Shown here: positions 1-39,251 of the stretch, one piece after another
How the letters are laid out: the number at the start of each line of letters is the position of its first letter
Position numbering within the stretch: position 1 is the stretch's first letter
NCBI GenBank assembly: GCA_001780895.1
Contig: MFJJ01000014.1
Span: forward strand, 1 to 45,297
Source of the DNA: Candidatus Gottesmanbacteria bacterium RIFCSPHIGHO2_01_FULL_46_14
Lineage (GTDB): Bacteria; Patescibacteriota; Microgenomatia; UBA10105; UBA927
DNA: 45,297 nt
Direction of reading: 5' to 3'
Position numbers and translations under genes: made by a program
Notes under the pieces: generated by a model
The model's input: only the letters and a program-made list of their open reading frames with translations
Database searches by the model: none
What the model was told of the DNA's origin: nothing

Positions 1-7
1 TTTTAAT

Positions 8-460
8 TTAGTATGGACGAATTCGTTCCTGCTTTTTCTGAGTTTGACGCCGGCGCCAGGCAGACCAATCTGAACCTTTCGGCGGAACCGGAAGTAATAC
101 TTTTCCGATTGTTTCATCTACTTTATCGAGGATATCACTGAATTTTTCCTGCCGGAGAATCCTCTCCAGAATCTTTTGATATCCCCGTCCACGATATTTT
201 ACCCATACACTTACGCTTGATACTGTAGGAAAACTCACTTTCAGTGTAGACTGGATAGTCCTATAATCAAATCCTTTAACCAACATGAGCGCGATCGAAA
301 GTCTCTTTGCAAGTACTATTCGTTCCGTAGGCGTGAGAAAATCCTCAAGGAATGCGGAAACATCGCTCTCGTTATTAAGCTCTGCAATTGTATGGAAGAA
401 TAAATCAAATATTCTTTTCTCTACTATAGAACTGACTCTTCGATTAGATACTTGTGCCAT
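8..460 (-). CDS. TrpR-related YerC/YecD-like helix-turn-helix DNA-binding protein (150 aa)
   Basis: ATG at 458-460. The segment FLEDFLTPTERIVLAKRLSIALMLVKGFDYRTIQSTLKVSFPTVSSVS fits the TrpR/YerC pattern (TP.E....A.R......L..G.sY..I.......S..T+SRV). The C-tail is basic. Recognition is from memory of the family; no search was run. Confidence 0.6.
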   Translation of the reverse strand: MAQVSNRRVSSIVEKRIFDLFFHTIAELNNESDVSAFLEDFLTPTERIVLAKRLSIALMLVKGFDYRTIQSTLKVSFPTVSSVSVWVKYRGRGYQKILERILRQEKFSDILDKVDETIGKVLLPVPPKGSDWSAWRRRQTQKKQERIRPY

Positions 461-461
461 A

Positions 462-483
462 TAAAATGATTCAAATCATTTTA
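462..483. promoter_or_regulatory. Perfect 22-bp palindrome TAAAATGATTCAAATCATTTTA (copy 1 of 3); candidate operator
   Basis: Read directly: 10-nt arms around a 2-nt centre (CA). It lies 1 nt upstream of the ATG of the YerC/TrpR-like gene and 1 nt after the TAA stop (485-487) of the preceding gene. The same 22-mer recurs at 10639-10660 and 19952-19973. Confidence 0.5.
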
Positions 484-484
484 A

Positions 485-1078
485 TTATTGTGTGATGATG
501 TGAATGCGGGCGTTGTCAACGTAGACGTCGTAGGCTAAGCTTGATTTAAGATACACTTGATAGAGCTTGTTACCTGGTTCGAGAGTAATCGTGGCTTCTT
601 TTCTGACAAGCCCCCCGCCTTCAAAATATACCTCGCTAAACCACACGTCGTGTTTATCGGTCGCGTTGAAAAGTTTGGCGTAGGTACGGCCATTTCCCGT
701 GGGGTTTCTCAAAAAAACTTCAAATGTCACGCGTTTGATTGAATCATAGAGCGCCGTATCAATGTAGACTTGGGCCCCATCAAGTGCCACATACTCGTTA
801 CTTTTTGTCGTCCCTGATCCCAAGGGGATATAGTATTCTTTCGCTTGAGAAATTGGACCCTGTATGAACGTGGGGAGAGTCGGTGCTGGAGTAAAAACGA
901 CGTATGGTGTTGGCCCCGATACAATCGGGGTTGGGGTACTGGTAGGCTGGGGATCGCGATAAGAAACAATAGGCTCTGATTTCCCTTGAGAAAAAATAAT
1001 AATATCAATCCATACCAAATTGATCGCAACGAGAAGCAAAATTGCCGTGAGCGCTCCAATGATAGGATTACGAAGCAT
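485..1078 (-). CDS. Hypothetical membrane-anchored extracytoplasmic protein with Pro/Thr-rich linker (197 aa)
   Basis: The tracked ORF start at 1093 is a TTG; the first ATG is at 1076-1078 (MLRNPIIGALTAILLLVAINLV = N-terminal TM). This is followed by a PQPTSTPTPIVSGPTPYVVFTPAPTLPT linker and a beta-rich C-terminal domain. I recognise no family. Confidence 0.55.
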   Translation of the reverse strand: MLRNPIIGALTAILLLVAINLVWIDIIIFSQGKSEPIVSYRDPQPTSTPTPIVSGPTPYVVFTPAPTLPTFIQGPISQAKEYYIPLGSGTTKSNEYVALDGAQVYIDTALYDSIKRVTFEVFLRNPTGNGRTYAKLFNATDKHDVWFSEVYFEGGGLVRKEATITLEPGNKLYQVYLKSSLAYDVYVDNARIHIITQ

Positions 1079-1970
1079 ATAGTTTTCGAACAAATCGTTT
1101 CCAAACTCTCGCGAGCGGATTTAGTTCTGTCTCAATCTCTACCGTTTTAGTCCAATATTCTATCTCTTTGCCTCTATCGTGAAGCTCTCGAGTTACGATG
1201 GGAAAGTTCAATTCAATATCGACGAATTTAGATCGCTCCCATAGCTTGGCAAACACAATAAAGGAATAGAATGCCTGAAGAATTGCCAGAACCAGTCCGT
1301 GCAGCCCGTCTTTATATCCGCTTTGAGCAAAAAAAATCTTAATAAAATCGGAAATCGGGAACCGCAATGCATCCATCCAGGAGATCTGGTACCCACTTTG
1401 GATGTGTTTGGCAACTTCGCTTTCGGTATAAATGGTATCCATTTTGCCGATAAATTGAGAAATAGATGAATAATTGTAGTGAATATACGGTTCGTTCAGT
1501 TCACCCGTTATCCCCACGACCTCCAAGTATTCATGGACATGTTTCCCGGGAAATTTTCCCGATCCTCTCCGAAATAATCTCAATTGCTTATCCGGCCACC
1601 AAAGACCATGACGAATCCAACGCCTAAAAATAATATTTTTCCTTGGGATCCAATATCCGGCGGTGTCGGTCGCACCAATAGCAATCTTTATCTCCGCTGC
1701 CAAACCCTCTGGTATTTCCTCGTCGCTATCAAGGGAAAGAATCCATTCGCTTTTTGCCTTCGTAAACCCAAAGTTTTTATTGACGTTTAACATTGGATTA
1801 TTTTCTTTTGTAAGTATTTTTGCCTTGAATTTATTTGCGATTGCCACGGTGTCATCAGTTGACTCATTGTCTATAACAATAATCTCGTCTGCCCATCGGA
1901 CGGAGGCGAGCGTCCTCGGGAGAGTTTGACTGGCATTAAGGGCAGAAATCACGACACTTATCGTCGCCAT
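1068..1970 (-). CDS. Glycosyltransferase family 2 (300 aa)
   Basis: The N-terminus ISVVISALNASQTLPRTLASV...IIVIDNESTDDT and the acidic motif LDSDEE are typical of GT-A/GT2. ATG at 1968-1970. It overlaps the upstream gene by 13 nt. Confidence 0.8.
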   Translation of the reverse strand: MATISVVISALNASQTLPRTLASVRWADEIIVIDNESTDDTVAIANKFKAKILTKENNPMLNVNKNFGFTKAKSEWILSLDSDEEIPEGLAAEIKIAIGATDTAGYWIPRKNIIFRRWIRHGLWWPDKQLRLFRRGSGKFPGKHVHEYLEVVGITGELNEPYIHYNYSSISQFIGKMDTIYTESEVAKHIQSGYQISWMDALRFPISDFIKIFFAQSGYKDGLHGLVLAILQAFYSFIVFAKLWERSKFVDIELNFPIVTRELHDRGKEIEYWTKTVEIETELNPLARVWKRFVRKLYAS

Positions 1971-8811: not shown

Positions 8812-9884
8812 ATACTGATTATAGCAGTAATACCAATGGGAATGAGGGTTAACCAGAGCTTGGCTTCGGGTGCCGGAGGGTCCCAGTTGCCGAGGTAAAG
8901 ATATGGAAGGTAACGCAGAAGCAAACCAATAGATACTCCGAGAGAAATAATAAACAGATTGCGCGACCGGGGCAGAAGCGCGACAAAGGGCATAATCCAA
9001 ACCCAATACCAGGGAAGAACTTCCCGATCACGAATGACAAAGAGAAGTCCGGCAAGCATGGCAAATAATGCCCATTTTCTGTTACCGAAAACAGGAAAGA
9101 GTGTAGCTGTCATTAGTTTGAGCCCAACAGAGGCGGCCAACGCAAGCCATGACCGATAGTACCATGCGACCATCGCAATCCCCATCATCACGATGTCGTT
9201 ATGCGGACTTACAACACTTTCTATTAAAATGAGCGGATTTAATGCAAAAATCGTCATACCTACGAACTTATTTTTATGATCCTCCCGGCCCAGTATTTTT
9301 CCAATCATGAATGTAGTTAGGAGGTAAAAGCTGGCAAACAGAAGCTTCATGTTCCACATAGTAAGGAGGAATACCCCAAATCCAAACAGATATGGCGGGA
9401 GTGACAACAAAATCCAAAGTGGCGTGTAGGCACTGGGCAGATGCGTCCAGCGCATGAACGATAACCATGGTTCAATCCCGGTAAGTTGCAACGGAATGAT
9501 GGTATAGGGATTGGTATGATAGACCAAAATTGTTTTTGCCGTAAACATATAATTATAGATGTCATAGGAAAATGCAGGATAGGAAAACAGGAGTATGGCG
9601 CTTATCGTGACGACCAGACGCCAAAAAAACACTTTGGTAAGTTTGCCTTGCCGTGCCAAACCAACTGCCCAAATATAAAGAACAGTCAGAGACGTTAACA
9701 AACCGACAAACAGCCCCGAGGATATGTCTCGGCGGAAATAGCCGATATTTTGAAACGACTTCTGAATAATCTGCCAAACGCTACTACGCGAAAGCGTTAA
9801 ATTAAGATCGACCTGGGTATAGGAATACAGAAAGATTTCCAAAGAAACGAGAATATACAGGAAAAACAATATTCGTTGTTTCAC
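8772..9884 (-). CDS. Polytopic membrane protein, GT87/DUF2029-like putative GT-C glycosyltransferase (370 aa)
   Basis: About 10 TM segments; SYPAFSYDIYNY and HLPSAYTPLW resemble the DUF2029/GT87 family. The proposed start is GTG at 9882-9884, forming a GTGA overlap with the stop of the upstream GT2. The tracked start at 9989 would lie inside that gene. The family call is tentative. Confidence 0.45.
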   Translation of the reverse strand: MKQRILFFLYILVSLEIFLYSYTQVDLNLTLSRSSVWQIIQKSFQNIGYFRRDISSGLFVGLLTSLTVLYIWAVGLARQGKLTKVFFWRLVVTISAILLFSYPAFSYDIYNYMFTAKTILVYHTNPYTIIPLQLTGIEPWLSFMRWTHLPSAYTPLWILLSLPPYLFGFGVFLLTMWNMKLLFASFYLLTTFMIGKILGREDHKNKFVGMTIFALNPLILIESVVSPHNDIVMMGIAMVAWYYRSWLALAASVGLKLMTATLFPVFGNRKWALFAMLAGLLFVIRDREVLPWYWVWIMPFVALLPRSRNLFIISLGVSIGLLLRYLPYLYLGNWDPPAPEAKLWLTLIPIGITAIISIWHEVAGSFSRSS

Positions 9885-10633
9885 TGGTAAACTCCCTTCC
9901 ACGCGTTTATCCGTATTGCAACAATATCGGTAAGTCCCTGCCATGAATCGACAATAGGATTGACTCTCCTGGTTTCCACATAATGCCATTCGACGGAGAC
10001 TTCACGGATTTTTAACCCCAGTCGTTTTGCAATGTACAAAAACTCGATATCAAATCCAGCCGTAACCATACTGCCGCTCACTTCATGCCCCGAACCATAC
10101 AGACTCAGGCGATCCAAAATCCTAATACCCTGCTCTCGTTTAAATGCTTTAAATCCGCACTGCGTATCGTTTATTCCCGATAACCCCAGAATAAAACTCC
10201 GAAGGATCATAAATCCCCGCGCCATAATACGGCGTAACAGCGGAGCGCCTTCCCGCCTGCTGCTTCGTGATCCAATGACCACATCAAATCCCCGCTCAAA
10301 CCAAGGGAAAATTTTTTCTACTTGCGACAGTGGTGTTGCCTGATCCAAATCGGAAAATAATACCAGTTCTCCCCGACTTGCCCGAACCCCGGTCGTAACG
10401 GTGGCAGCTTTCCCCTGATGCGGGTTATGGACAACGCTAAACCCGTGGTTTTGGCGTGAAAACTCGTCAATAAGCTGAGCAGTTCCGTCGGTACTCCCAT
10501 CATCAACAACAATCACTTCCCATGTATAGTGGACGCTCTCCAAGTAGTGAGACACTTTATCGAGCGCCCCAAGACGAATATTGGTTTCCTCATTAAATGC
10601 CGGAATGACGATGGATAAAAGAATAGGCTTCAT
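9881..10633 (-). CDS. GT2 polyprenyl-phosphate glycosyltransferase-like (Dpm1/ALG5 type, 250 aa)
   Basis: The tracked start at 10651 is TTG; the first ATG is at 10631-10633 (MKPILLSIVIPAFNEETNI). Motifs: VVDDGSTDGT, SDLDQATP, TQCGFKAF. Confidence 0.8.
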   Translation of the reverse strand: MKPILLSIVIPAFNEETNIRLGALDKVSHYLESVHYTWEVIVVDDGSTDGTAQLIDEFSRQNHGFSVVHNPHQGKAATVTTGVRASRGELVLFSDLDQATPLSQVEKIFPWFERGFDVVIGSRSSRREGAPLLRRIMARGFMILRSFILGLSGINDTQCGFKAFKREQGIRILDRLSLYGSGHEVSGSMVTAGFDIEFLYIAKRLGLKIREVSVEWHYVETRRVNPIVDSWQGLTDIVAIRINAWKGVYQ

Positions 10634-10638
10634 ATCAT

Positions 10639-10660
10639 TAAAATGATTCAAATCATTTTA
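10639..10660. promoter_or_regulatory. Perfect 22-bp palindrome TAAAATGATTCAAATCATTTTA (copy 2 of 3)
   Basis: Read directly. It lies in the 48-nt gap between the ArnT-like gene stop (10682) and ATG 10633 of the GT2 gene, 5 nt upstream of that ATG. Confidence 0.5.
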
Positions 10661-18668: not shown

Positions 18669-18917
18669 TTATGGCCGCAGCACATTAACCAGAACGAGTA
18701 TTGCTACGGCGCCAACAAGCACGTATTCTATCACAACTTTCCTATGGAGATCGCCACTCGCGGCATGATGAACAATTCCCCATATAACGTAGGCAACAGC
18801 CGTAACAATCCCAATTCTTTGCTGCGCCGCTACATCTCCCCTGAGTATCACAAATGACGCAATCCCTCCGGCAAGAATCGAGACAAGCACAACATAATGG
18901 ACCATCTGTAATTTCAT
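18669..18917 (-). CDS. Small membrane protein (82 aa, 2-3 TM)
   Basis: Start trimmed to ATG 18915-18917, an ATGA overlap with the upstream stop. The sequence MKLQMVHYVVLVSILAGGIASFVIL...AVAILVLVNVLRP is hydrophobic. I recognise no family. Confidence 0.45.
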   Translation of the reverse strand: MKLQMVHYVVLVSILAGGIASFVILRGDVAAQQRIGIVTAVAYVIWGIVHHAASGDLHRKVVIEYVLVGAVAILVLVNVLRP

Positions 18918-19852
18918 AAAATACTCCCAGGCAACGATATTCCTACAAGTATAAGGAGTGCCGTAAAAAATAATATATGCGCGTGAGATCTCCCTGACAC
19001 CCGAACAATTCTTCTCTGATGGACAAACCACATATCCAGAGACAACAAACCAATGAGGAACCCGATAAAAATAAATGATATCCACTTATTGAGCGCTCCA
19101 AGATTGATCCAGGGATTCTGAACGACTTGCCCAAACTGGGCAAGGACAATCGGACCGAATGCAGAAGATCCCGCAGGTTCGTTGGTTGAAAATGCGACTT
19201 TCGTGATAGCGACCGGCTCCGTTGTGGGTTCCTGGGCAATAACTTCACGCACGAGGGGTTGCCGGACCGGAGCAGCCGCGACCGGCGCGCCGGCTGAAGC
19301 ACCAAACATTTGCACAACCAACGTGGTCTCTTCACCATTGAGCATGCCGTTGACGATTGCAAACCCGATATCTTTATAGCTGGGTTTTAACAGATTTTCT
19401 TTGTGAGACGTCGAAGCCATCCATGCATCAACGACACCACGGCTGTCGTTAAAATTTTTGGCGAGATTTTCGCCTGCGACCGTATATTTATACCCGGCGC
19501 CAACGATAAAGTCCCACGGAAGCTTCCCGTCCGGGCTCGTGTGTGCCCAATAATTTTTGGCAAACATGTCAGCTGCTTTGCCTGCCGCCGCTTGAGAGAG
19601 CTGGCCATTAAGCACGAGCGACGATAATCCCGCTTCCCGCCGCTTCTCATTGGTGAAAGACAATAACTGTTCAAGACGGATATCGGTCGCATACCCTAAC
19701 ACGTCCGGAATCCGCATAGTTCCAACCCACGTAACGATCTGGAACATCAAAAATGCGAATATATAGACGAGAAACGCATCAATATGGAGAGCTCGGGCAC
19801 GATGATTGTTCGTGTGGTGCGGCAAAAACGCGTGGACCAATAATGAAACCAT
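18914..19852 (-). CDS. CAP/SCP (PR-1/YkwD-like) domain protein with N- and C-terminal TM segments (312 aa)
   Basis: Motifs: NYWAHTSPDG, YTVAGENLAKNF, VDAWMASTSHKENLL. A GGAG lies 3 nt upstream of the ATG. Confidence 0.75.
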   Translation of the reverse strand: MVSLLVHAFLPHHTNNHRARALHIDAFLVYIFAFLMFQIVTWVGTMRIPDVLGYATDIRLEQLLSFTNEKRREAGLSSLVLNGQLSQAAAGKAADMFAKNYWAHTSPDGKLPWDFIVGAGYKYTVAGENLAKNFNDSRGVVDAWMASTSHKENLLKPSYKDIGFAIVNGMLNGEETTLVVQMFGASAGAPVAAAPVRQPLVREVIAQEPTTEPVAITKVAFSTNEPAGSSAFGPIVLAQFGQVVQNPWINLGALNKWISFIFIGFLIGLLSLDMWFVHQRRIVRVSGRSHAHILFFTALLILVGISLPGSIL

Positions 19853-19921: not shown

Positions 19922-20521
19922 TTAACTAATAAAAAAGAATGCATCAATCATTAAAATGATTTGAATCATTTTAATATTCGGCAGGAAAGCTGTAGATTCC
20001 TCTTCGGCAATAGCTGTAACGACGAAGCGCTTTTGATCAAAAAACCCCGTACAGGTATAGAGCGTAATTCTGCGATCGTCGGTTGAGGCAAGAATATGGG
20101 TTTGATCGGGTGTTACTTCCTGAGTGTACTCAACAATAAACATCCGGCGTTCTCCATTGTTAAAGCCAATACTGATCGTTGCACCCGGTTTAATCCTGGT
20201 TAATCTTCCTAAAATATTTGGCCAATTGTGACCATAGAGGATGCTATTTCCCCGGTCTCCCGGTCTCGGAGTATTGGCAAGATACACGACTCCACGATTA
20301 CTCATTGGCCATGTATTATCAATTAACTCTTCGGAAATAATAGAGAGCGCAAGACCGAGATCTTCAATTTCTATCGACGTCGGAACAATCTCGGTCCTAT
20401 CCTTCGTCGCTGGCAACACCATCGCATTAAAGGCGAGTCTCGTTGGGCTATACCGCTGCCATATGAGATACCCTGCAGCCAAAATTGAAATGACCCCAAG
20501 GAAAAAAAAGAATCGGCTCAT
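19922..20521 (-). CDS. Sortase family transpeptidase (199 aa)
   Basis: N-terminal TM, His motif ILYGHNW, catalytic TLYTCTG (TLxTC), and the conserved Arg in KRFVVTA. Confidence 0.8.
   Translation of the reverse strand: MSRFFFFLGVISILAAGYLIWQRYSPTRLAFNAMVLPATKDRTEIVPTSIEIEDLGLALSIISEELIDNTWPMSNRGVVYLANTPRPGDRGNSILYGHNWPNILGRLTRIKPGATISIGFNNGERRMFIVEYTQEVTPDQTHILASTDDRRITLYTCTGFFDQKRFVVTAIAEEESTAFLPNIKMIQIILMIDAFFFIS
19950..19975. promoter_or_regulatory. Palindrome copy 3, extended to 26 bp: ATTAAAATGATTTGAATCATTTTAAT
   Basis: Read directly. It has the same arms as copies 1 and 2 with an inverted centre (TG). It lies inside the last codons of the sortase ORF and about 98 nt upstream of the CAP-domain gene ATG. 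Confidence 0.5.
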
Positions 20522-33413: not shown

Positions 33414-34312
33414 AGTACGATCGCTTTTCTAGCAGATTGCGCCATCTCCCATTTTTTTGACCGTACCCCATTATCCCGTCGTGGGAATACCCTCACGAGA
33501 ACATTCAATACCACTGCTCCTGATGTATAGAATGGACTACGAATGAACGTTTTCGCCATACCCAACATCTTGTACTTCAAAGGAATTTCGTAAAGACTGT
33601 CGAGATTTTTCCCTAAATATTTGGTCGCCTTATATCGACGGTAAAATATTGCCCTGCTACTGAGAGACCAAAAATCGTGTAGCGTATCCGGAGCTCTATA
33701 CAAAATCTTAGCCTCATGCACGTACCGGAAAGCACCGAGCTGTTTTGCCTTTATATACAAATAGCCCTCATCCGTATTTAAGTCAGCGGGATACCTCACC
33801 GTTTGAGCCACAATTTTTCGCATAGCGGTAGACCCCCCCTGTAAGTTGTGTGGATGATCTCCATCATTAACATGGATTCTCGATTCTATCCAAAACAAGT
33901 CTGCAGCTCGAGAAATATTTCCGATCACCGAATCAGATACAACTGGTTCTATATGAAAAACAGCAATGCCTACGGTTGGATCTTTAAAAACATTGATGAT
34001 TTTTTCAATCGCGTGATTTTCTGCAATAACGTAATCTGCATCAAGAGTAATGAGTATGTCGCTTTTGTTCATTGAATAAATCTGATTGAGAGCAGACATT
34101 TTTCCATCGCGCTTTTTTTGTTCAATAACATGGGCTCCTGCTGACCGAGCTATTTTTGCGGTATCATCGGTACAACCACTACACACCACCACAATTTTTT
34201 CGATCGTAAAATTATTGCCTTTTTGTTTACGAACCGATGAGAGCAAATTCCCAATGTTAACAGCTTCATTATGTGCTGGAATGCCAATGGTGACTGTCAA
34301 TCGCTTTTTCAT
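33410..34312 (-). CDS. Glycosyltransferase family 2 (300 aa)
   Basis: Motifs: VTIGIPAHNEAVNI, VCSGCTDDT, TLDADYV. It has ATGA overlaps on both sides. Confidence 0.75.
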   Translation of the reverse strand: MKKRLTVTIGIPAHNEAVNIGNLLSSVRKQKGNNFTIEKIVVVCSGCTDDTAKIARSAGAHVIEQKKRDGKMSALNQIYSMNKSDILITLDADYVIAENHAIEKIINVFKDPTVGIAVFHIEPVVSDSVIGNISRAADLFWIESRIHVNDGDHPHNLQGGSTAMRKIVAQTVRYPADLNTDEGYLYIKAKQLGAFRYVHEAKILYRAPDTLHDFWSLSSRAIFYRRYKATKYLGKNLDSLYEIPLKYKMLGMAKTFIRSPFYTSGAVVLNVLVRVFPRRDNGVRSKKWEMAQSARKAIVL

Positions 34313-37300
34313 ACAGATGTCCTCCGGGCAATCGTGTACGCAAATACAGATTGTTTAGCGTTTGCAAGCTCGTCCATAACAACGTGATGCAATCGGTCAG
34401 CACTTTTTTCCCAACTAAAATTTTGTGCCCATTCAGTGGCATTTTTCGACCAAGCCCGACGGTCACCGGTACTCGTTATCATCCGCTCCATGGCTCCGAC
34501 AAATGAAAGGACATTTCGGGGCTGAACTAACAGTCCTGTCTTTTCATCGACGACCGAGTCCCGTAGCCCATAGACATTAGATGCGATGACGGGCGTACCG
34601 CAGGCATTCGCCTCAATAACCGTCAGTCCCCAGCCTTCAAATGAAGACGGCTGGATTGCCGCCCAATGCCGACTATAAAGCCGTACTTTTTCTTCCTCAT
34701 CTACTTTGCCCATAAATGAAACCGATGTTGTCAAATCAAACTCTTTTATTAATGCACGAAGTGCATCTATACTTTCTCCTTCTCCTGCAATGGTCATTCG
34801 TGCGGTCTGGTGAAACTTTCGTACTGTCGCAAAGGCACGTATCGCCACGTCGATATTTTTATATTGTTTGAGCCTTCCTAAATATAAAAATGAGGGAAAT
34901 GTGGTTTTTTTCGACTTGGTATTATAAAGAGACAAGTCAACTCCAGGGCTTACAATATCTATTCGTGCATCTTTCCCATACTGTAGATGAGCAAGTATTT
35001 CAGCCTTTGACGATTCGGAAACAGTAACGATTCTGGATCCTCTATAAACCAGAGGTGCAATTCTGGATTCTATAAACGCTGCGATAGAAGAGAATGGAAA
35101 TTTAAGATGCTCCCGAAATACCTGCTGGTGCACGTGATAAATAACCGTGATCGTGGGAATCCGGGCATAGAGCGGAGCAAAAAACGGAATTCCGTTTTGG
35201 CTATCGATAATAACGTCAAACTTACCCCTGAATCTAAAAACATAGTAAAGCATTGCCCACAGATAGACCGTATAAAATCCACCGCGACGCACAACCCGAA
35301 CTCCATCGATAACCTGGTTTCTGCTGTGTTTGCCATCATTGCCACAAAAGATGGTCACCTGGTTACCTGAAGCAACCCATCGCTTGGCAAGCTCGTGAAC
35401 GTAGACTTCCGCTCCTCCTGCCCATGTATGCCTCGTATCGCGCCAATTGAGAACCAAAATCCGAAGCGCAGCTCCTGCGGTGCGTTGTTTGGGAAATTCG
35501 GAGAACAACCCTAAAAAGTCACCGATGTTTCGAATAAAAACTCGTATCGGCTCGAGGAATACATGAGTAAAAGCTACCGCGTTTACAAATGCGAGAGAGG
35601 AAACAAGAAGAACATGCACAATTGCATCAAGTGATCCGTGACTCAACGTAATTCCCACTATTGCACCCGCACTTGCCACAAAACTCATCGCAGAAAATAC
35701 ATAGTTATGCCGAATCTGATGATACGTCACGATTGTTGATGCAACAGTAAAGAACGCATAAGCTATCGCGTACTCAGGGAGAAGATGGACAATGGAATTT
35801 GCACGCTCACCAAACAGCAGTGGCGCGGTAATATACCCATATACCCCAAAGGCTAAAACACCAATTCCTGAAGCGATCATAGTTAGTCCTAAAAGAATCC
35901 GGAACTGTCGCTTCCCTTTTCCTCCTTCTCCAACCCTTCTGCTCACCAAGGGAACGATAAACTGCGAAAATAGCGAACCAAAAAAGAAAATCATTTTCCC
36001 CGATAGGGACAACAGTGCATATTGTCCCGCCTCTATCGGCGTTACGAAGAGTCGGACCATGAGAAAATCAAGCCCCAAAAACGCAGCAGATGAAGAACGG
36101 ATCAGTATCGTCGAGGCAAAAAACCGCCTCGGAAATCCACCATCTTTCGGATCCACAACCCGCTTTTGATCTTGGCTGGAAAATCTTACCGATAACCATC
36201 GCACCACGGCAAAAGAACAAACAATTGATAAGGGAATAGCAGCATACACAAGAAGCGATATCCCAGTCTCGACACCCAAAATAGCAAACACGAGCTTTGA
36301 AATTGCTTCGGTAATAAGCACAACAGACACTAACGTAAACTGCTGGGAACCGCTCAAATATCCTCCGTCGACGGAAGCAAGCAAACCAACCATAACAACA
36401 GGCGTAAAAAGCACGATTGGTGCAAGCGAATTGAGATGAAGCACTGTTGAGATTACCGGAATCCCGCCAATCCAAATTCCTGTAGCAAACAGCGAAACAA
36501 CGAGAGCTTTATGGCGTACGGTTTTCCAAAATTCAGTAGCCGGACCATCATATCTGCCCATCAGATATGCACTTTTGTGAGTAACCGTCATTGAAACTGC
36601 ACTAAATGCTATCTGGGCGGCATAGAGAAGACTTCCGATAAGACCGATAACACCAAAATCCTCGAGGCTCAATTTTCTTCCCAGGTAGGCATTATAGACA
36701 AAATTAAGCAGATTTCCCAATACTGAAGCCGCGATCAAAAGGACCGCTGGTGACAAAACGGGAGCAAAATTCCAACGCCTGGCTGCTTTTGCAGATTTAG
36801 GAGCAACGGCAAAAATTTTCTTCTTTGCTTTGTCCAAGTGGAATCCGTGGTTTGTCTTTTCCCAGTAATGGGGCTTAACGATAAGCTGTACCATGGCAAT
36901 CGTTGCAGCGACAGATACCATCAACCAGTAAAACGGCACGAGAAAAACATACTTAATGACGCTCCAGTGTCCTGCCCGGGCAGCACCAATCATGTAGTAA
37001 TAGATAAACAGGAAGTTTCCGAACACCAGAGACGTGACGGCCATATAGAAAATGACCGTCGGATAGAGCGATTCGATCGTCGGACCGACAAACGCGTAGA
37101 GAGTAAAATACGAAATTGTGGCAAGCCACAAAAAAGGATTGATGAACATAAACGCGATCTTGCCCCCAATGGTCAATTGAAAATACAAAGCATGAATGCC
37201 GTGACGCGAAACAAAACGGAGAGGATAGCGCATATGGACTAGATACGTCTGGAGATACCCTTTGATCCATCGGGATCGTTGCCTCATCCAATTTCCGAAT

Positions 37301-38979
37301 TTGCTGGTTGCTTCCTCGAGGGTAATTGAGTCCATGACGGCAGTTTTGTATCCCGCGCTAAAGAGCCGTGAGCCCAAATCACAATCCTCCGTCACGTTAA
37401 ATGCATCCCATCCATGGAGATGACGGAGAATTTCGGTTCGGAAATGGTTGCTCGTCCCGCCAAGCGGGATACTGGTTTGGATAGACTGAAGTCCGGTAAG
37501 GACGACGTCAAACCAGAGTGAATATTCTGCAGTAAATAGCCTCGTGAGCAAGTTGTTGTGTGGATTGTAAAAATTGAGCTTTGCCTGAAGACAGACCGTC
37601 TTGGCAGGCACTCTACCGAATGCCAGAATTGCTTTTTTGAGTTGTTTGGGATCAGGTATATCTTCTGCATCGTAGACAACAACATAATCCCCTTTTGCAT
37701 ATGCCAACCCGTAATTACAAGCCTTTGGCTTGGTTTTGGGCGCTCCCTCAGGGACCACCAGAATCCGTACATAGTCAGGCAATGTCAGGTTAGAAACTTC
37801 ATCGATGGTCTCCTTGTCATCCTCCTCTAAAAGTAACATCACGTCGAGACGATTTTTAGGATAGTCAAGACTTTCGATCGCTTTTAAAAATTGAGGAACA
37901 ACATGGGCTTCGCGGTACAACGGACACAATATCGAGTACAATGGAAGAGACCTCTCATCGATATGTGATAATTCTGCCTCCGTTATACTGATATCCGGTG
38001 ACCGGTGGAGACTTCTGAGAACCAAAAAGAGAGTAAATAGCACGTCAACAAAATAGATTGTTGAAAGTATGCCAACGATGCCAATAGCTGTTGGTAGCGG
38101 GTGCAAAATAAGCCCTGCAACAACGAGAGTAATGGTCATCGCTATTGCGACTTGCTGCCAAAACAGAAATGTCTTGATTGCAGAAATTTGGTGCGGGAGT
38201 GTGGAATGGGTGATAAAGCGAGTGCGTTTGTGCGCAATGCCTGCGCCAATCATCGACCCCTCACTCTTGGGCGGAAGCGTGTAGATAGGTTTGACATTGA
38301 GCCAGGTGATGAGTGCACCACTTGCTATTTCCCAGGCAGTTTTGGTGAGATTGATCTTGGAAGCACCTTCTTGCCGCAACTCAAAGCTGATGTCAACTGA
38401 TCCGATACTATACCCTACCTCTCGGGCAGTGGACAGAAGCGGCAAATCAAACGCCCAGGGTCTAATAGAGTTCTCGTCAATGTGACCCAAGATGTCTTTG
38501 CGGAAGAGCTTTAATCCTGACTGGATATCTGTTGAAATACCAAACAATAGTTTTCCAAAAACAAACGCATTCGTGCGCGAAAGCACCCGCCTTAGACAGG
38601 ATCCCTTGTATTGTCTCCGGTTGGCAACGACTATGCCATGCTTTTGGGCTTTCTCGACCATAGCTGGAATTGCTTCCGGGGGATATTGCAAGTCTGCATC
38701 GATCATGACGATCCATTCACTTTTGGCTAATTTGGCCCCTTCGATAATGCTGTATGCTTTTCCTGCTTTACCACGCTTCGTATGAATCAGGATCGGGTAG
38801 TCCTTCGACAATCTCTCCATAACGGCGACTGACCCGTCGGTCGAATGATCATCAACAAAAATAATTTCATAGGAAATTTTTGCAGAAGCAAGGGATGCAT
38901 TGATCCGCTCGACCAGAGGAGTTAGTGTCAACTCTTCATTTCTGCCAGGAATGACGATCGATAAATTTTCTGGTTTCAT
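34309..38979 (-). CDS. 1556-aa four-module fusion: Dpm1-like GT2 / processive cellulose-chitin-synthase-like GT2 with TM bundle / 12-TM MOP(Wzx)-like module / GT4
   Basis: A single uninterrupted frame. Module 1: aa 5-230 (nt ~38290-38967), with IVIPGRNEE, FVDDHSTDGS, IDADLQ. Module 2: aa ~268-715 (nt ~36835-38178), with 2 TM, then YDAED, TEDCDLG, QRSRW, then ~4 TM. Module 3: aa ~738-1150 (nt ~35530-36768), with ~12 hydrophobic segments and LGRKLSLEDFGVIG, typical of Polysacc_synt flippases. Module 4: aa ~1172-1540 (nt ~34360-35466), with ILVLNWRD...GGAEVYVHELA and SFEGWGLTVIEANACGTPVIAS (GT4 EX7E region). Confidence 0.85.
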   Translation of the reverse strand: MKPENLSIVIPGRNEELTLTPLVERINASLASAKISYEIIFVDDHSTDGSVAVMERLSKDYPILIHTKRGKAGKAYSIIEGAKLAKSEWIVMIDADLQYPPEAIPAMVEKAQKHGIVVANRRQYKGSCLRRVLSRTNAFVFGKLLFGISTDIQSGLKLFRKDILGHIDENSIRPWAFDLPLLSTAREVGYSIGSVDISFELRQEGASKINLTKTAWEIASGALITWLNVKPIYTLPPKSEGSMIGAGIAHKRTRFITHSTLPHQISAIKTFLFWQQVAIAMTITLVVAGLILHPLPTAIGIVGILSTIYFVDVLFTLFLVLRSLHRSPDISITEAELSHIDERSLPLYSILCPLYREAHVVPQFLKAIESLDYPKNRLDVMLLLEEDDKETIDEVSNLTLPDYVRILVVPEGAPKTKPKACNYGLAYAKGDYVVVYDAEDIPDPKQLKKAILAFGRVPAKTVCLQAKLNFYNPHNNLLTRLFTAEYSLWFDVVLTGLQSIQTSIPLGGTSNHFRTEILRHLHGWDAFNVTEDCDLGSRLFSAGYKTAVMDSITLEEATSKFGNWMRQRSRWIKGYLQTYLVHMRYPLRFVSRHGIHALYFQLTIGGKIAFMFINPFLWLATISYFTLYAFVGPTIESLYPTVIFYMAVTSLVFGNFLFIYYYMIGAARAGHWSVIKYVFLVPFYWLMVSVAATIAMVQLIVKPHYWEKTNHGFHLDKAKKKIFAVAPKSAKAARRWNFAPVLSPAVLLIAASVLGNLLNFVYNAYLGRKLSLEDFGVIGLIGSLLYAAQIAFSAVSMTVTHKSAYLMGRYDGPATEFWKTVRHKALVVSLFATGIWIGGIPVISTVLHLNSLAPIVLFTPVVMVGLLASVDGGYLSGSQQFTLVSVVLITEAISKLVFAILGVETGISLLVYAAIPLSIVCSFAVVRWLSVRFSSQDQKRVVDPKDGGFPRRFFASTILIRSSSAAFLGLDFLMVRLFVTPIEAGQYALLSLSGKMIFFFGSLFSQFIVPLVSRRVGEGGKGKRQFRILLGLTMIASGIGVLAFGVYGYITAPLLFGERANSIVHLLPEYAIAYAFFTVASTIVTYHQIRHNYVFSAMSFVASAGAIVGITLSHGSLDAIVHVLLVSSLAFVNAVAFTHVFLEPIRVFIRNIGDFLGLFSEFPKQRTAGAALRILVLNWRDTRHTWAGGAEVYVHELAKRWVASGNQVTIFCGNDGKHSRNQVIDGVRVVRRGGFYTVYLWAMLYYVFRFRGKFDVIIDSQNGIPFFAPLYARIPTITVIYHVHQQVFREHLKFPFSSIAAFIESRIAPLVYRGSRIVTVSESSKAEILAHLQYGKDARIDIVSPGVDLSLYNTKSKKTTFPSFLYLGRLKQYKNIDVAIRAFATVRKFHQTARMTIAGEGESIDALRALIKEFDLTTSVSFMGKVDEEEKVRLYSRHWAAIQPSSFEGWGLTVIEANACGTPVIASNVYGLRDSVVDEKTGLLVQPRNVLSFVGAMERMITSTGDRRAWSKNATEWAQNFSWEKSADRLHHVVMDELANAKQSVFAYTIARRTSV

Positions 38980-39155
38980 GGCTTGAACTTCTGATTTTTC
39001 AAAAACGAATAGAAATCATTTTTTGCTATCCGATAGTATCTCCCAAAACGCACCGCAGAGAGTCTCCCGGAACGGATATATTCGTAGATCGTTAATGTGT
39101 TTAGCCTGAGTATCTTGGCTATTTCACTAACAGTGAGAAAAGGTGCGTCAAACAT
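38976..39155 (-). CDS. Small excisionase/MerR-type HTH DNA-binding protein (59 aa), absent from the supplied ORF track
   Basis: Hand translation from ATG 39153-39155 gives MFDAPFLTVSEIAKILRLNTLTIYEYIRSGRLSAVRFGRYYRIAKNDFYSFLKNQKFKP. The pattern LT..E.A..L.....T+Y.....G.L....+G+.+RI...D...+L is the HTH_17/excisionase signature. The TGA stop (38976-38978) overlaps the ATG (38977-38979) of the 1556-aa gene. Confidence 0.65.
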   Translation of the reverse strand: MFDAPFLTVSEIAKILRLNTLTIYEYIRSGRLSAVRFGRYYRIAKNDFYSFLKNQKFKP

Positions 39156-39222: not shown

Positions 39223-39251
39223 ACAATACCATGGGGATGTTTATCTGTCAA
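39223..39251 (-). promoter_or_regulatory. Sigma70-like promoter candidate TTGACA-17-TATTGT upstream of the small HTH gene
   Basis: Minus strand reads TTGACA (39246-39251), a 17-nt spacer, TATTGT (39223-39228). The implied 5' UTR of ~60 nt contains the inverted repeat TAACTTA-N6-TAAGTTA (39193-39212). Confidence 0.3.

What the first reader, a model, noticed from the sequence alone, without database searches (positions are those of the whole stretch)
462..483. Perfect 22-bp palindrome present three times at operon breaks; copy 1 abuts the start codon of a YerC/TrpR-like regulator
TAAAATGATT-CA-AATCATTTTA occurs at 462-483 and 10639-10660. With the centre inverted (TG) and arms extended to 26 bp, it also occurs at 19950-19975. 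Three identical 22-mers in 45 kb cannot be chance.

All three sit at rare interruptions of an otherwise gapless gene train. Copy 1 fills almost the whole 24-nt gap between a TAA stop and the ATG of the only classical transcription-factor-like gene in the window.

The dyad has 10-bp arms, a 2-nt centre and is nearly all A/T. That makes a poor RNA hairpin or terminator, but it has the geometry of a dimeric HTH operator. On the coding strand each copy begins with TAAAAT, a -10-like hexamer, so a bound protein would occlude the promoter or TSS.

My hypothesis (inference) is that the YerC/TrpR-like protein autoregulates and co-regulates the envelope-glycosylation and sortase operons through this site.
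Basis: partly seen in the sequence, partly recalled or inferred. Interest (0 to 1): 0.65.

Follow-up and report, generated by a model that had tools for sequence, protein, structure and literature searches.

The report
Palindromic binding sites of a YerC-like regulator
A perfect 22-bp palindrome repeated at gene junctions in a groundwater candidate-phyla (Microgenomates) bacterium is most likely the private DNA site of the small TrpR/YerC-type regulator encoded next to it, and nearly every relative of that regulator in this group carries its own version of the palindrome beside its gene.

Summary
TAAAATGATTNNAATCATTTTA occurs at 462-483, 10639-10660 and 19952-19973, against 0.01 expected by chance. 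A fourth copy is cut by the window start, and a fifth lies just beyond it.

Gene 8-460(-) is a YerC/YecD-type TrpR-family protein with a C-terminal extension. In 80 related loci from Microgenomates MAGs, 52 of 78 such genes have a long even-centred palindrome just upstream of the start codon. The sequence differs by subfamily and between paralogs in one genome. About two thirds also carry the same core just past their stop codon.

23 of 52 upstream sites overlap a strong sigma70-like promoter. Palindrome centres are 79% self-complementary and show no G·U bias. The window hairpins are weak as RNA.

The best reading is the cognate DNA operator of the YerC-like protein, with autoregulation plus further sites that gate units of the envelope-glycan cluster.

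- Promoter occlusion at copies 2 and 3 is not shown.
- Copy 3 lies downstream of the sortase gene, not upstream.
- Dispersed copies in relatives occupy all types of intergenic region, which hints at a boundary or roadblock role.

No binding or transcript data exist.

The parts
462..483 (.). Palindrome copy 1. It lies 1 nt after the TAA of the upstream 202-aa gene and 1 nt before the ATG of the YerC-like gene. It is the proposed autoregulatory operator.
   Evidence: the same position is conserved upstream of orthologues
8..460 (-). A 150-aa YerC/YecD-type TrpR-family protein. It has a TrpR-fold core at residues 11-104 and a C-terminal extension of about 45 aa predicted as two helices. It is the proposed binder of the palindrome.
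   Evidence: Pfam PF01371 E 4.6e-16; TIGR02531 45.7 bits against a cut-off of 42.2; PDB 3FRW/3G1C/3KOR; AlphaFold model plus Foldseek matches to TrpR, TMt 0.7-0.87
1..5 (.). Truncated edge of palindrome copy 4. The full copy starts 2 nt after the stop codon of the YerC-like gene, so the gene is bracketed by two exact copies.
   Evidence: L116 10456-10477, exact, in six contigs that carry the identical protein
10639..10660 (.). Palindrome copy 2. It lies 21 nt after the stop of a PMT_2 gene and 5 nt before the ATG (10633) of a GT2 gene that opens a 10-kb glycosylation unit. An extra ATGAT half-site follows at 10634-10638.
   Evidence: a palindrome 13 nt upstream of a GT2 gene also occurs in Collierbacteria L026
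19950..19975 (.). Palindrome copy 3 (26 bp; core 19952-19973; centre inverted). It overlaps the 3' end of the sortase ORF and lies 99 nt upstream of the CAP-domain gene that precedes the rmlACBD sugar-nucleotide genes. An extra ATGATT half-site follows at 19946-19951.
9881..10633 (-). GT2 glycosyltransferase, the first gene downstream of copy 2 and a candidate target.
   Evidence: Pfam PF00535 E 1.9e-27
18914..19852 (-). CAP-domain protein, the first gene downstream of copy 3 and a candidate target. It is followed by rmlA, rmlC, rmlB, rmlD, a UDP-glucose dehydrogenase, a dehydratase, a GT2-GtrA gene and a PMT_2 gene.
19922..20521 (-). Sortase gene, which lies upstream of copy 3. Its called ORF reads through the palindrome.
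   Evidence: Pfam PF04203 covers residues 50-170 of 199; sequence
475..504 (-). Weak promoter-like match TTCACA-18-AATGAT that overlaps copy 1. This is a consensus match only.
   Evidence: 9 of 12; the number of such matches in the region equals chance

Best explanation
The 22-bp dyad is effectively about 28 bp in relatives. It is the cognate double-stranded DNA site of the YerC/YecD-type TrpR-family protein encoded at 8-460(-), which would bind it as a symmetric dimer.

The copy that abuts the start codon of the gene is its autoregulatory operator. In many relatives this site overlaps the -10 element, the transcription start or the first transcribed bases of a canonical sigma70-type promoter.

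The other copies are further high-affinity sites for the same protein. They comprise one directly after the gene and three at unit boundaries of the surrounding envelope-glycan gene train. Through them the protein would gate transcription into the downstream unit, either by occluding weak internal promoters or by blocking elongating RNA polymerase.

Shown here:
- the repeats;
- the family assignment of the protein;
- the conserved, subfamily-specific pairing of gene and palindrome;
- the promoter overlap in relatives;
- the DNA-type symmetry.

Inferred:
- binding itself;
- repression rather than activation;
- the mode of action at copies 2-5;
- any ligand.
For: - **Chance is excluded.**
- **The protein is a family member.** It matches PF01371 and TIGR02531 above their cut-offs and has the TrpR fold.
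- **The palindrome is tied to the gene.** Of 78 related genes from Microgenomates MAGs, 52 have an even-centred palindrome with arms of 9 or more within 60 nt upstream. Perfect arms of 9 or more occur upstream of 38 of 76 such genes, against 6 of 501 other ORFs in the same loci.
- **The palindrome type tracks the protein.** It follows the protein subfamily. Two paralogs in one genome have two different palindromes, for example L058 and L065.
- **Unbiased scans recover the gene.** Exact scans of 185,579 genomes and of metagenomes for the window's 22-mer return mostly Microgenomates, and repeatedly land beside YerC-like genes. YerC-like is the only large cluster among 251 flanking proteins, with 33 members in 20 distinct groups.
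- **Promoter overlap.** 23 of 52 upstream sites have a -35 match of at least 5 of 6 at 16-19 nt from a -10. The palindrome centre lies -7 to +24 nt from the end of the -10 in 22 of them (+38 in the other). Only 5 of 47 downstream sites have such a promoter.
- **DNA-type symmetry.** The centre dinucleotide is self-complementary in 96 of 122 sites, and G·T mismatches (40) do not exceed A·C (32). The window hairpins are weak as RNA, at -5.6 and -6.5 kcal/mol with z about -0.9.
- **Copy number fits a regulon.** There are 3-7 exact copies per genome. Sites are sharply defined: 80 exact, 6 with one mismatch, 8 with two and none with three.
- **Conserved placement.** The murT-gatD and tsaC-tsaB-like junctions carry a site in different genomes. 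At murT-gatD the two genomes have different palindrome types.
- **Family precedent.** TrpR and HisR (B. subtilis YerC) bind lineage-specific palindromes of about 20 bp and often autoregulate (PMC9413887).
Against: - No binding, transcript-end or expression data exist. Only tiny SOLiD metatranscriptomes were found, with no coverage.
- In the window, the TAAAAT hexamer has no convincing -35. Across 38 sites of this type, -35 scores are the same in both orientations.
- About two thirds of the genes also carry the palindrome just after the stop codon, even when the next gene is convergent (29 of 42 co-directional, 18 of 30 convergent).
- Dispersed copies are not depleted from convergent intergenic regions (14 of 67 against a background of 15%). 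They also occur inside conserved operons such as rplW-rplB and sufS-sufU.
- The 5' and 3' copies share the inner 12 nt but often differ in the outer 5 nt per arm, while each stays symmetric. Symmetry fades gradually from position ±12 to ±15. A fixed protein footprint alone does not predict this.
- Copies 1, 2 and 5 leave only 1-6 nt before the next start codon.
Confidence: 0.6

Rival explanations
1. REPtron-like repeat system. The palindromes would be a self-propagating or domesticated repeat family. The YerC-like protein would be its keeper, recognising the repeats for copying, recombination or maintenance, as REP elements flank and co-vary with their RAYT transposase. On this reading they are not regulatory operators.
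For: - The gene is bracketed by two copies in about two thirds of loci.
- Each paralog has its own repeat family.
- Copies are near-identical.
- They sit in every kind of intergenic region at background proportions.
- A single gene-plus-palindrome unit (the GNAT gene) is present in the window lineage and L148 but absent in L159 and L177.
- sufU is bracketed in the same way.
Against: - There are only 3-7 exact copies per genome, not hundreds.
- Nothing beyond about 28 bp is repeated.
- The protein has only an HTH fold plus two helices, with no nuclease or recombinase domain.
- No partner gene is conserved nearby.
- Synteny is stable within subfamilies (recA, gyrA, glmS, secDF neighbours).
- Upstream sites coincide with promoters.
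- The same junctions are occupied in distant genomes by different palindrome types.
- No relatives occur in viral contigs.
- No rearrangement joints appear in four metagenome assemblies.
Confidence: 0.1
2. Chromosome-architecture sites. The protein would be a site-specific nucleoid or segregation factor, comparable to ParB-parS, SlmA-SBS, MatP-matS or KorB-OB. Its few near-perfect palindromic sites would simply be placed wherever non-coding DNA is available, with transcription effects secondary.
For: - Sites are few, near-consensus and perfectly symmetric.
- They show no preference for promoter-bearing intergenic regions.
- Sites lie at or near the protein's own gene, as parS does for parB.
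- Copies cluster locally, with five in 31 kb here.
Against: - The protein belongs to a family of ligand-controlled repressors (PMC9413887).
- Several paralogs with private sites occur per genome, which is unlike single-copy segregation systems.
- Upstream sites overlap promoters far more often than downstream sites do.
- Positions along whole chromosomes could not be examined.
Confidence: 0.08
3. RNA-level element. The palindrome would act as a hairpin in polycistronic mRNA, serving as a terminator, a processing or stability signal, or a translational-coupling device between a stop codon and the next start. Its link to the YerC-like gene would be incidental.
For: - Copies sit exactly between stop and start codons, with no room for a Shine-Dalgarno.
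- Some relatives' palindromes would form stable hairpins of -12 to -22 kcal/mol.
- Some sites are squeezed between convergent stop codons like bidirectional terminators.
- In about half of the promoter-bearing loci the whole palindrome would be transcribed.
Against: - The window hairpins do not differ from shuffled sequence.
- There is no GC-rich stem and no general U-tract.
- The loop positions are themselves self-complementary in 79% of sites, and G·U pairs show no excess over A·C.
- Structure alone does not explain identical sequence at all copies in a genome, or a sequence that co-varies with a DNA-binding paralog.
- No Rfam family matches.
Confidence: 0.06

Closest known systems
HisR (B. 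subtilis YerC) and E. coli TrpR: TrpR-family repressors with palindromic operators
   Same: - Same Pfam and NCBIfam family and the same fold.
- Dyad-symmetric operator of about 20 bp, with a lineage-specific consensus.
- Frequent autoregulation through a site upstream of the repressor gene (PMC9413887).
- Operator overlap with the promoter in many loci.
   Different: - The protein is about 148 aa, not under 110, with a conserved C-terminal extension.
- The site does not match the HisR consensus cacTTTAnnnnnnTAAAgtg or the TrpR consensus.
- Neither this window nor the loci examined around sites carry his or trp genes; the neighbours here are envelope-glycan genes.
- The dyad extends to about 28 bp.
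- A second copy follows the stop codon.
- Several paralogs with private sites occur per genome.
- Dispersed sites are not confined to 5' regions.
REP elements and their RAYT transposases (REPtrons)
   Same: The gene is flanked by its own palindromic repeat. The repeat family co-varies with the protein paralog. The same repeat is dispersed in intergenic regions.
   Different: - The protein is not an HUH/Y1 transposase.
- There are 3-7 copies, not hundreds.
- The palindromes are perfect and symmetric through the centre.
- There is no GTAG/CTAC signature.
- Upstream copies overlap promoters.
Auxiliary operators and DNA looping (lac O1-O2, gal OE-OI, deo)
   Same: Two like operators lie a few hundred bp apart, one at the promoter and one within or after the gene. 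Here the centres are 478 bp apart.
   Different: Here the second site lies just past the stop codon in most loci. Tetramerisation of the protein is unknown. Looping was not tested.
Roadblock repression by tightly bound repressors (LacI on the symmetric operator, CcpA and CodY sites inside operons)
   Same: Near-ideal symmetric sites lie between co-directional genes without a recognisable promoter.
   Different: No experimental evidence for elongation block exists here. Dedicated families of roadblock factors with private sites have not, to my knowledge, been described.

Membership tests
TrpR / YerC-YecD protein family (the 150-aa gene) | Matches the family profile above the curated cut-off | tested here: met
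   PF01371 scores 59.1 bits against a cut-off of 27. TIGR02531 yecD_yerC scores 45.7 against 42.2. TIGR01321 TrpR proper scores 21.5 against 67.25, which is not met.
TrpR / YerC-YecD protein family (the 150-aa gene) | TrpR six-helix fold with a helix-turn-helix | tested here: met
   In the AlphaFold model, residues 11-104 have pLDDT 86-92. Foldseek matches 3KOR, 3FRW, 3G1C, and 1TRO with other E. coli TrpR entries, at TMt 0.70-0.87.
TrpR / YerC-YecD protein family (the 150-aa gene) | Short single-domain protein of about 90-110 aa | tested here: not met
   The protein is 150 aa. Relatives are 144-153 aa, with about 45 extra C-terminal residues.
HisR (YerC) histidine regulon | Operator consensus cacTTTAnnnnnnTAAAgtg upstream of his or histidine-transport genes | tested here: not met
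   The site is TAAAATGATTNNAATCATTTTA. The neighbours are glycosyltransferase, rml and other envelope genes. The consensus is taken from PMC9413887.
Autoregulatory transcription-factor operator | Dyad site conserved upstream of orthologous regulator genes | tested here: met
   52 of 78 loci carry one. For perfect arms of 9 or more, the figures are 38 of 76 such genes against 6 of 501 control ORFs.
Autoregulatory transcription-factor operator | Site overlaps the core promoter or transcription start | tested here: inconclusive
   This is met in 23 of 52 relatives. In the window there are only weak 9-of-12 matches, at chance frequency. No -35 enrichment appears at 38 sites of the window's type.
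Autoregulatory transcription-factor operator | Specific binding by the regulator | not testable with these tools
   This needs EMSA, DAP-seq or ChIP.
Intrinsic (Rho-independent) terminator | Stable GC-rich hairpin followed by a U-tract | tested here: not met
   Free energies are -5.6 and -6.5 kcal/mol with z about -0.9. The terminator scan does not call these sites.
REP/RAYT (REPtron) | Flanked gene encodes an HUH/Y1 transposase, and repeats number in the hundreds | tested here: not met
   The only domain found is the TrpR-type HTH. There are 3-7 exact copies per genome. Flanking of the gene by the repeat is met.
Known RNA family | Match to an Rfam covariance model | tested here: not met
   No Rfam match reaches gathering score anywhere in the window.

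The most novel reading that the evidence does not exclude
Microgenomates may use families of extended YerC-like proteins as protein-dependent boundary elements. Each protein would have a private, near-perfect palindrome of about 28 bp. The sites would act as conditional roadblocks or insulators that punctuate promoter-poor, gapless gene trains and convergent gene ends. Each factor would bracket its own gene with its site. This would be a mode of operon punctuation distinct from both intrinsic and Rho-dependent termination, and from classical promoter operators.
Probability: 0.2. Interest if true: 0.8.

Novelty: new variant of a known kind. Interest (0 to 1): 0.6.

Why it matters
Almost nothing is known about how candidate-phyla-radiation bacteria control transcription. 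They have few regulators, very compact genomes and no genetic systems.

This result pairs one regulator family with its predicted sites across a whole superphylum-level group. The family is sizeable: 153 clusters at 50% identity match at E ≤ 1e-30. The pairing comes with natural specificity variants, because paralogs have different cores. That makes protein-DNA recognition, regulon content and operon architecture in these organisms directly testable in vitro and in heterologous hosts.

In this organism it points to coordinated control of a cell-envelope glycosylation cluster of more than 30 kb. The bracketed-gene architecture and the sites at convergent gene ends would, if functional, be an unusual use of a TrpR-type repressor.

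Tried and rejected
- **RNA evidence.** Searches for sequencing runs found only DNA metagenomes and three tiny SOLiD metatranscriptomes with no coverage. No transcript ends could be mapped.
- **Rearrangements.** Laying Logan contigs of four metagenomes on window 1-1500 showed only assembly breaks at the repeat. There were no inversion or deletion joints.
- **Known RNA genes.** Rfam and tRNA scans of the window found nothing.
- **TAAAAT as a -10 element.** I looked for a -35 at 16-18 nt from the hexamer. Across 38 non-redundant sites the mean score was 2.97 in the sense orientation and 2.84 in the antisense orientation, so this is not supported for the window's palindrome type.
- **RNA hairpin selection.** G·T mismatches (40) do not exceed A·C (32), so this is not supported.
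- **Long symmetric flanks as evidence for a hairpin.** Symmetry exceeds background only out to ±14, so the 32-38-bp palindromes are the tail of a graded edge.
- **A coherent regulon across genomes.** Apart from the YerC-like genes, flanking proteins form only small clusters.
- **Phage origin.** There are no relatives in IMG/VR.
- **A chance hit.** L128 (10776-11250) is an unrelated tandem repeat of about 123 nt in another organism.
- **Literature.** Searches found the HisR/YerC work but nothing on these palindromes in candidate-phyla bacteria.

Full report
**1. The observation**

The pattern TAAAATGATTNNAATCATTTTA occurs exactly at 462-483, 10639-10660 and 19952-19973. No further matches appear even with three mismatches allowed, and 0.01 are expected by chance. 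Copy 3 is a 26-bp perfect palindrome at 19950-19975. These are the only palindromes in the window with arms of 11 or more.

All genes run on the minus strand. On that strand:
- Copy 1 sits 1 nt after the TAA of a 202-aa gene and 1 nt before the ATG of the 150-aa gene 8-460.
- Copy 2 sits 21 nt after a PMT_2 gene and 5 nt before the ATG (10633) of a GT2 gene.
- Copy 3 overlaps the last 17 codons of the sortase ORF as called. It lies 99 nt before a CAP-domain gene that precedes rmlA/C/B/D and further sugar genes.

Contigs that carry the identical protein (LCAG01000006.1, MFJW01000011.1 and metagenome contigs) extend beyond the window start. They show that window bases 1-5 are the edge of a fourth exact copy, 2 nt after the gene's stop. 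A fifth copy with one mismatch overlaps the stop of the next gene (a GNAT acetyltransferase) and lies 6 nt before another GT2 gene. So five copies lie within 31 kb, all inside one large envelope-glycosylation cluster.

**2. The protein**

Gene 8-460(-) matches Pfam Trp_repressor (E 4.6e-16). It matches NCBIfam YerC/YecD above its cut-off, but not TrpR proper. Its closest solved relatives are the TrpR-like proteins 3FRW, 3G1C and 3KOR.

An AlphaFold model has a confident TrpR-type core at residues 11-104 and two lower-confidence C-terminal helices. The model superposes on YerC-like structures and on E. coli TrpR, including the operator complex.

The long form of about 148 aa is a sizeable family. 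A profile search finds 153 clusters at 50% identity with E ≤ 1e-30. None were found in viral contigs.

**3. The link between gene and palindrome**

An exact scan of one genome per species returned 35 loci, about half from Microgenomates-type MAGs: Collier-, Levy-, Gottesman- and Roizmanbacteria, with seven copies in one Collierbacteria contig. Three of these loci lie directly beside a YerC-like gene.

I then fetched 80 loci that encode relatives of the protein. Almost every one has a long even-centred palindrome just upstream of the start codon, but the sequence differs by lineage. Examples:
- TAAAATGATTnnAATCATTTTA
- TTTAATGATTTAAATCATTAAA
- TACGATGATACGTATCATCGTA
- TACCATGTTTTAAAACATGGTA
- TTCATTACTATATAGTAATGAA

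By a uniform criterion, 52 of 78 loci qualify. Perfect arms of 9 or more occur upstream of 38 of 76 of these genes, against 6 of 501 other ORFs in the same loci. The palindrome type follows the protein subfamily, and genomes with two paralogs have two different palindromes.

A metagenome scan for the window's 22-mer gave 59 more loci, 12 of them beside YerC-like genes. Among 251 proteins flanking sites of two palindrome types, the only large cluster is the YerC-like family, with 33 members in 20 distinct groups.

**4. Protein site on DNA, or RNA hairpin?**

The centre dinucleotide is self-complementary (TA, CG or AT) in 96 of 122 sites. A hairpin loop does not need this. G·T mismatches (40) do not exceed A·C (32).

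The window copies fold no better than shuffled sequence, at -5.6 and -6.5 kcal/mol. They lack a GC-rich stem and a U-tract. No Rfam family matches.

All copies in a genome share the same sequence. Real sites are sharply separated from background: 80 exact, 6 with one mismatch, 8 with two and none with three, with the mismatches in the outer three positions. Copy numbers are 3-7 exact per genome.

These features fit a tightly specified double-stranded binding site.

**5. Promoters**

These genomes have canonical promoters. In 23 of 52 upstream sites, a -35 hexamer matching TTGACA in at least 5 of 6 positions (mostly perfect) lies 16-19 nt from a -10. The palindrome centre is -7 to +24 nt from the end of the -10 in 22 of them (+38 in the other). 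For the TTTAAT type, the outer hexamer of the palindrome is itself the -10. For the ACTATATAGT type, the centre is the -10. Only 5 of 47 downstream sites have such a promoter. This is the classical layout of an autorepressor.

In the window itself the matches are weak (TTCACA-18-AATGAT, TAGAAA-18-TAAAAT and TCTACA-17-TAAAAT, each 9 of 12) and occur at chance frequency. Sites of the window's type elsewhere show no -35 enrichment.

**6. What a simple operator does not explain**

- **Bracketing.** In 47 of 72 loci a second palindrome lies -18 to +40 nt from the stop codon of the YerC-like gene. It is there whether the next gene is co-directional (29 of 42) or convergent (18 of 30).
- **Outer arms.** The two copies share the inner 12 nt in 47 of 48 loci. 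They differ in the outer 5 nt per arm in 27 of 48, and each remains symmetric.
- **Edge of the dyad.** Symmetry beyond the 22-mer is high at ±12 (0.70-0.91), lower at ±13 and ±14, and at background by ±15. The dyad is therefore about 28 bp with a graded edge.
- **Intergenic context.** Dispersed copies of a second type (TTYAATGATTTAAATCATTRAA; 72 sites, of which 67 have both neighbours called) lie in tandem (40), convergent (14) and divergent (13) intergenic regions. This matches the background of adjacent gene pairs.
- **Sites inside operons.** Sites of the window's type occur between rplW and rplB, on both sides of sufU, between murT and gatD, and between tsaC and a tsaB-like gene.
- **Conserved junctions.** The murT-gatD junction carries a different palindrome type in another genome. 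That argues for conserved function rather than random insertion.
- **Unit indel.** The GNAT gene plus one palindrome is present or absent as a unit between close relatives.
- **No rearrangements.** Metagenome assemblies break at the repeat but show no rearrangement joints.

**7. Interpretation**

The best-supported reading is that the palindrome is the cognate DNA site of the adjacent YerC-like protein. The 5' copy would be an autoregulatory operator. The other copies would be further sites through which the protein controls transcription into the next unit of the glycan cluster.

Binding, the sign of regulation and any ligand are inferred. The downstream copy, the near-ideal symmetry and the sites at promoter-less or convergent junctions suggest looping or roadblock and insulator action.

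I give lower weight to three rivals, for the reasons listed under each:
- a REP/RAYT-like repeat system;
- architectural sites;
- a pure RNA element.

**8. Comparison with what is known**

TrpR and HisR (B. subtilis YerC) bind palindromes of about 20 bp with lineage-specific consensus and often autoregulate. HisR was validated in vitro in Ruminococcus gnavus (PMC9413887).

The present proteins are members of the YerC/YecD family by profile and by fold. They form a longer subfamily, and their sites match neither the HisR nor the TrpR consensus. No histidine or tryptophan genes appear in this window or in the loci examined around sites. The bracketing, the multiple private paralog-site pairs and the distribution of sites have not been described in the literature I could search.

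I therefore class this as a new variant of a known kind.

**9.

- Right: the reality of the repeat, the family of the protein, the poor-terminator argument and the likely protein-site link.
- Incomplete: the number of copies.
- Wrong: that this is the only regulator-like gene in the window. A 59-aa HTH_17 ORF lies at 38976-39155.
- Wrong: the implication that the sortase gene is controlled from copy 3.
- Unproven: promoter occlusion at copies 2 and 3.

Noticed in passing
window 38976-39155 (-), with a promoter-like TTGACA (39246-39251) -17- TATTGT (39223-39228) upstream: A 59-aa ORF lies in the only long intergenic gap of the window (279 nt). It falls below the 60-aa ORF listing threshold. It is an HTH_17 (excisionase/MerR-like) DNA-binding protein, PF12728, E 3.7e-12. 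Its TGA overlaps the ATG of the 1556-aa multi-domain glycosyltransferase gene. This is a second regulator-like gene in the window.
   Followed up: partly
window 34309-38979 (-): A single 1556-aa ORF combines two GT2 domains with a GT4/GT1 domain. This is an unusually large fused glycosyltransferase.
   Followed up: no
window 10634-10638 and 19946-19951: Copies 2 and 3 are each followed at once by a third half-site (ATGAT / ATGATT). The right arm therefore forms a second, overlapping 16-bp quasi-palindrome, AATCATTTTAATGATT. The same occurs at L032 and L064. This suggests tandem or overlapping binding.
   Followed up: partly
L116 10456-10990 compared with L159 and L177: The GNAT acetyltransferase gene plus one palindrome is present between the YerC-like gene and the GT2 gene in the window lineage and in L148. 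It is absent as a unit in close relatives L159 and L177.
   Followed up: partly
L138 4617-5028, L141, L170, L179; L165 4933 and L175 3415: In related metagenome contigs the same 22-mer brackets the sufU/iscU-like gene on both sides. It also sits between ribosomal protein genes rplW and rplB, inside the S10 operon.
   Followed up: partly
L149 7966 and L226 6840: The murT-gatD junction carries a palindrome in two different genomes, but of two different types (TAAAATGATT... and TTCAATGATT...). Aminoacyl-tRNA synthetase genes (MetRS, GlyRS, SerRS, LysRS, GluRS) recur next to sites.
   Followed up: partly
L128 10660-11250: An array with a period of about 123 nt, whose unit ends in ...CAAATCATTTTA, produced a chance exact hit. 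It is an unrelated tandem repeat in a different organism.
   Followed up: partly
loci L037, L038, L040, L044-L047 and many others: Many MAGs titled 'uncultured Gammaproteobacteria' or 'Pseudomonadales' carry Microgenomates-type YerC-like genes, palindromes and gene content. Their taxonomic labels look wrong.
   Followed up: no
window 446-475, in runs X2 and X3: Public assemblies (Logan contigs) break exactly at the palindrome. They also yield a 555-nt contig bounded by two copies, so the repeat fragments short-read assemblies of this organism.
   Followed up: yes
window 458-484, 10631-10638; L116 10991-10999: Copies 1, 2 and 5 leave only 1-6 nt before the next start codon, with no Shine-Dalgarno sequence. 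Copy 4 is followed by a good AGGAG before a TTG start. How the former genes are translated is unclear.
   Followed up: no
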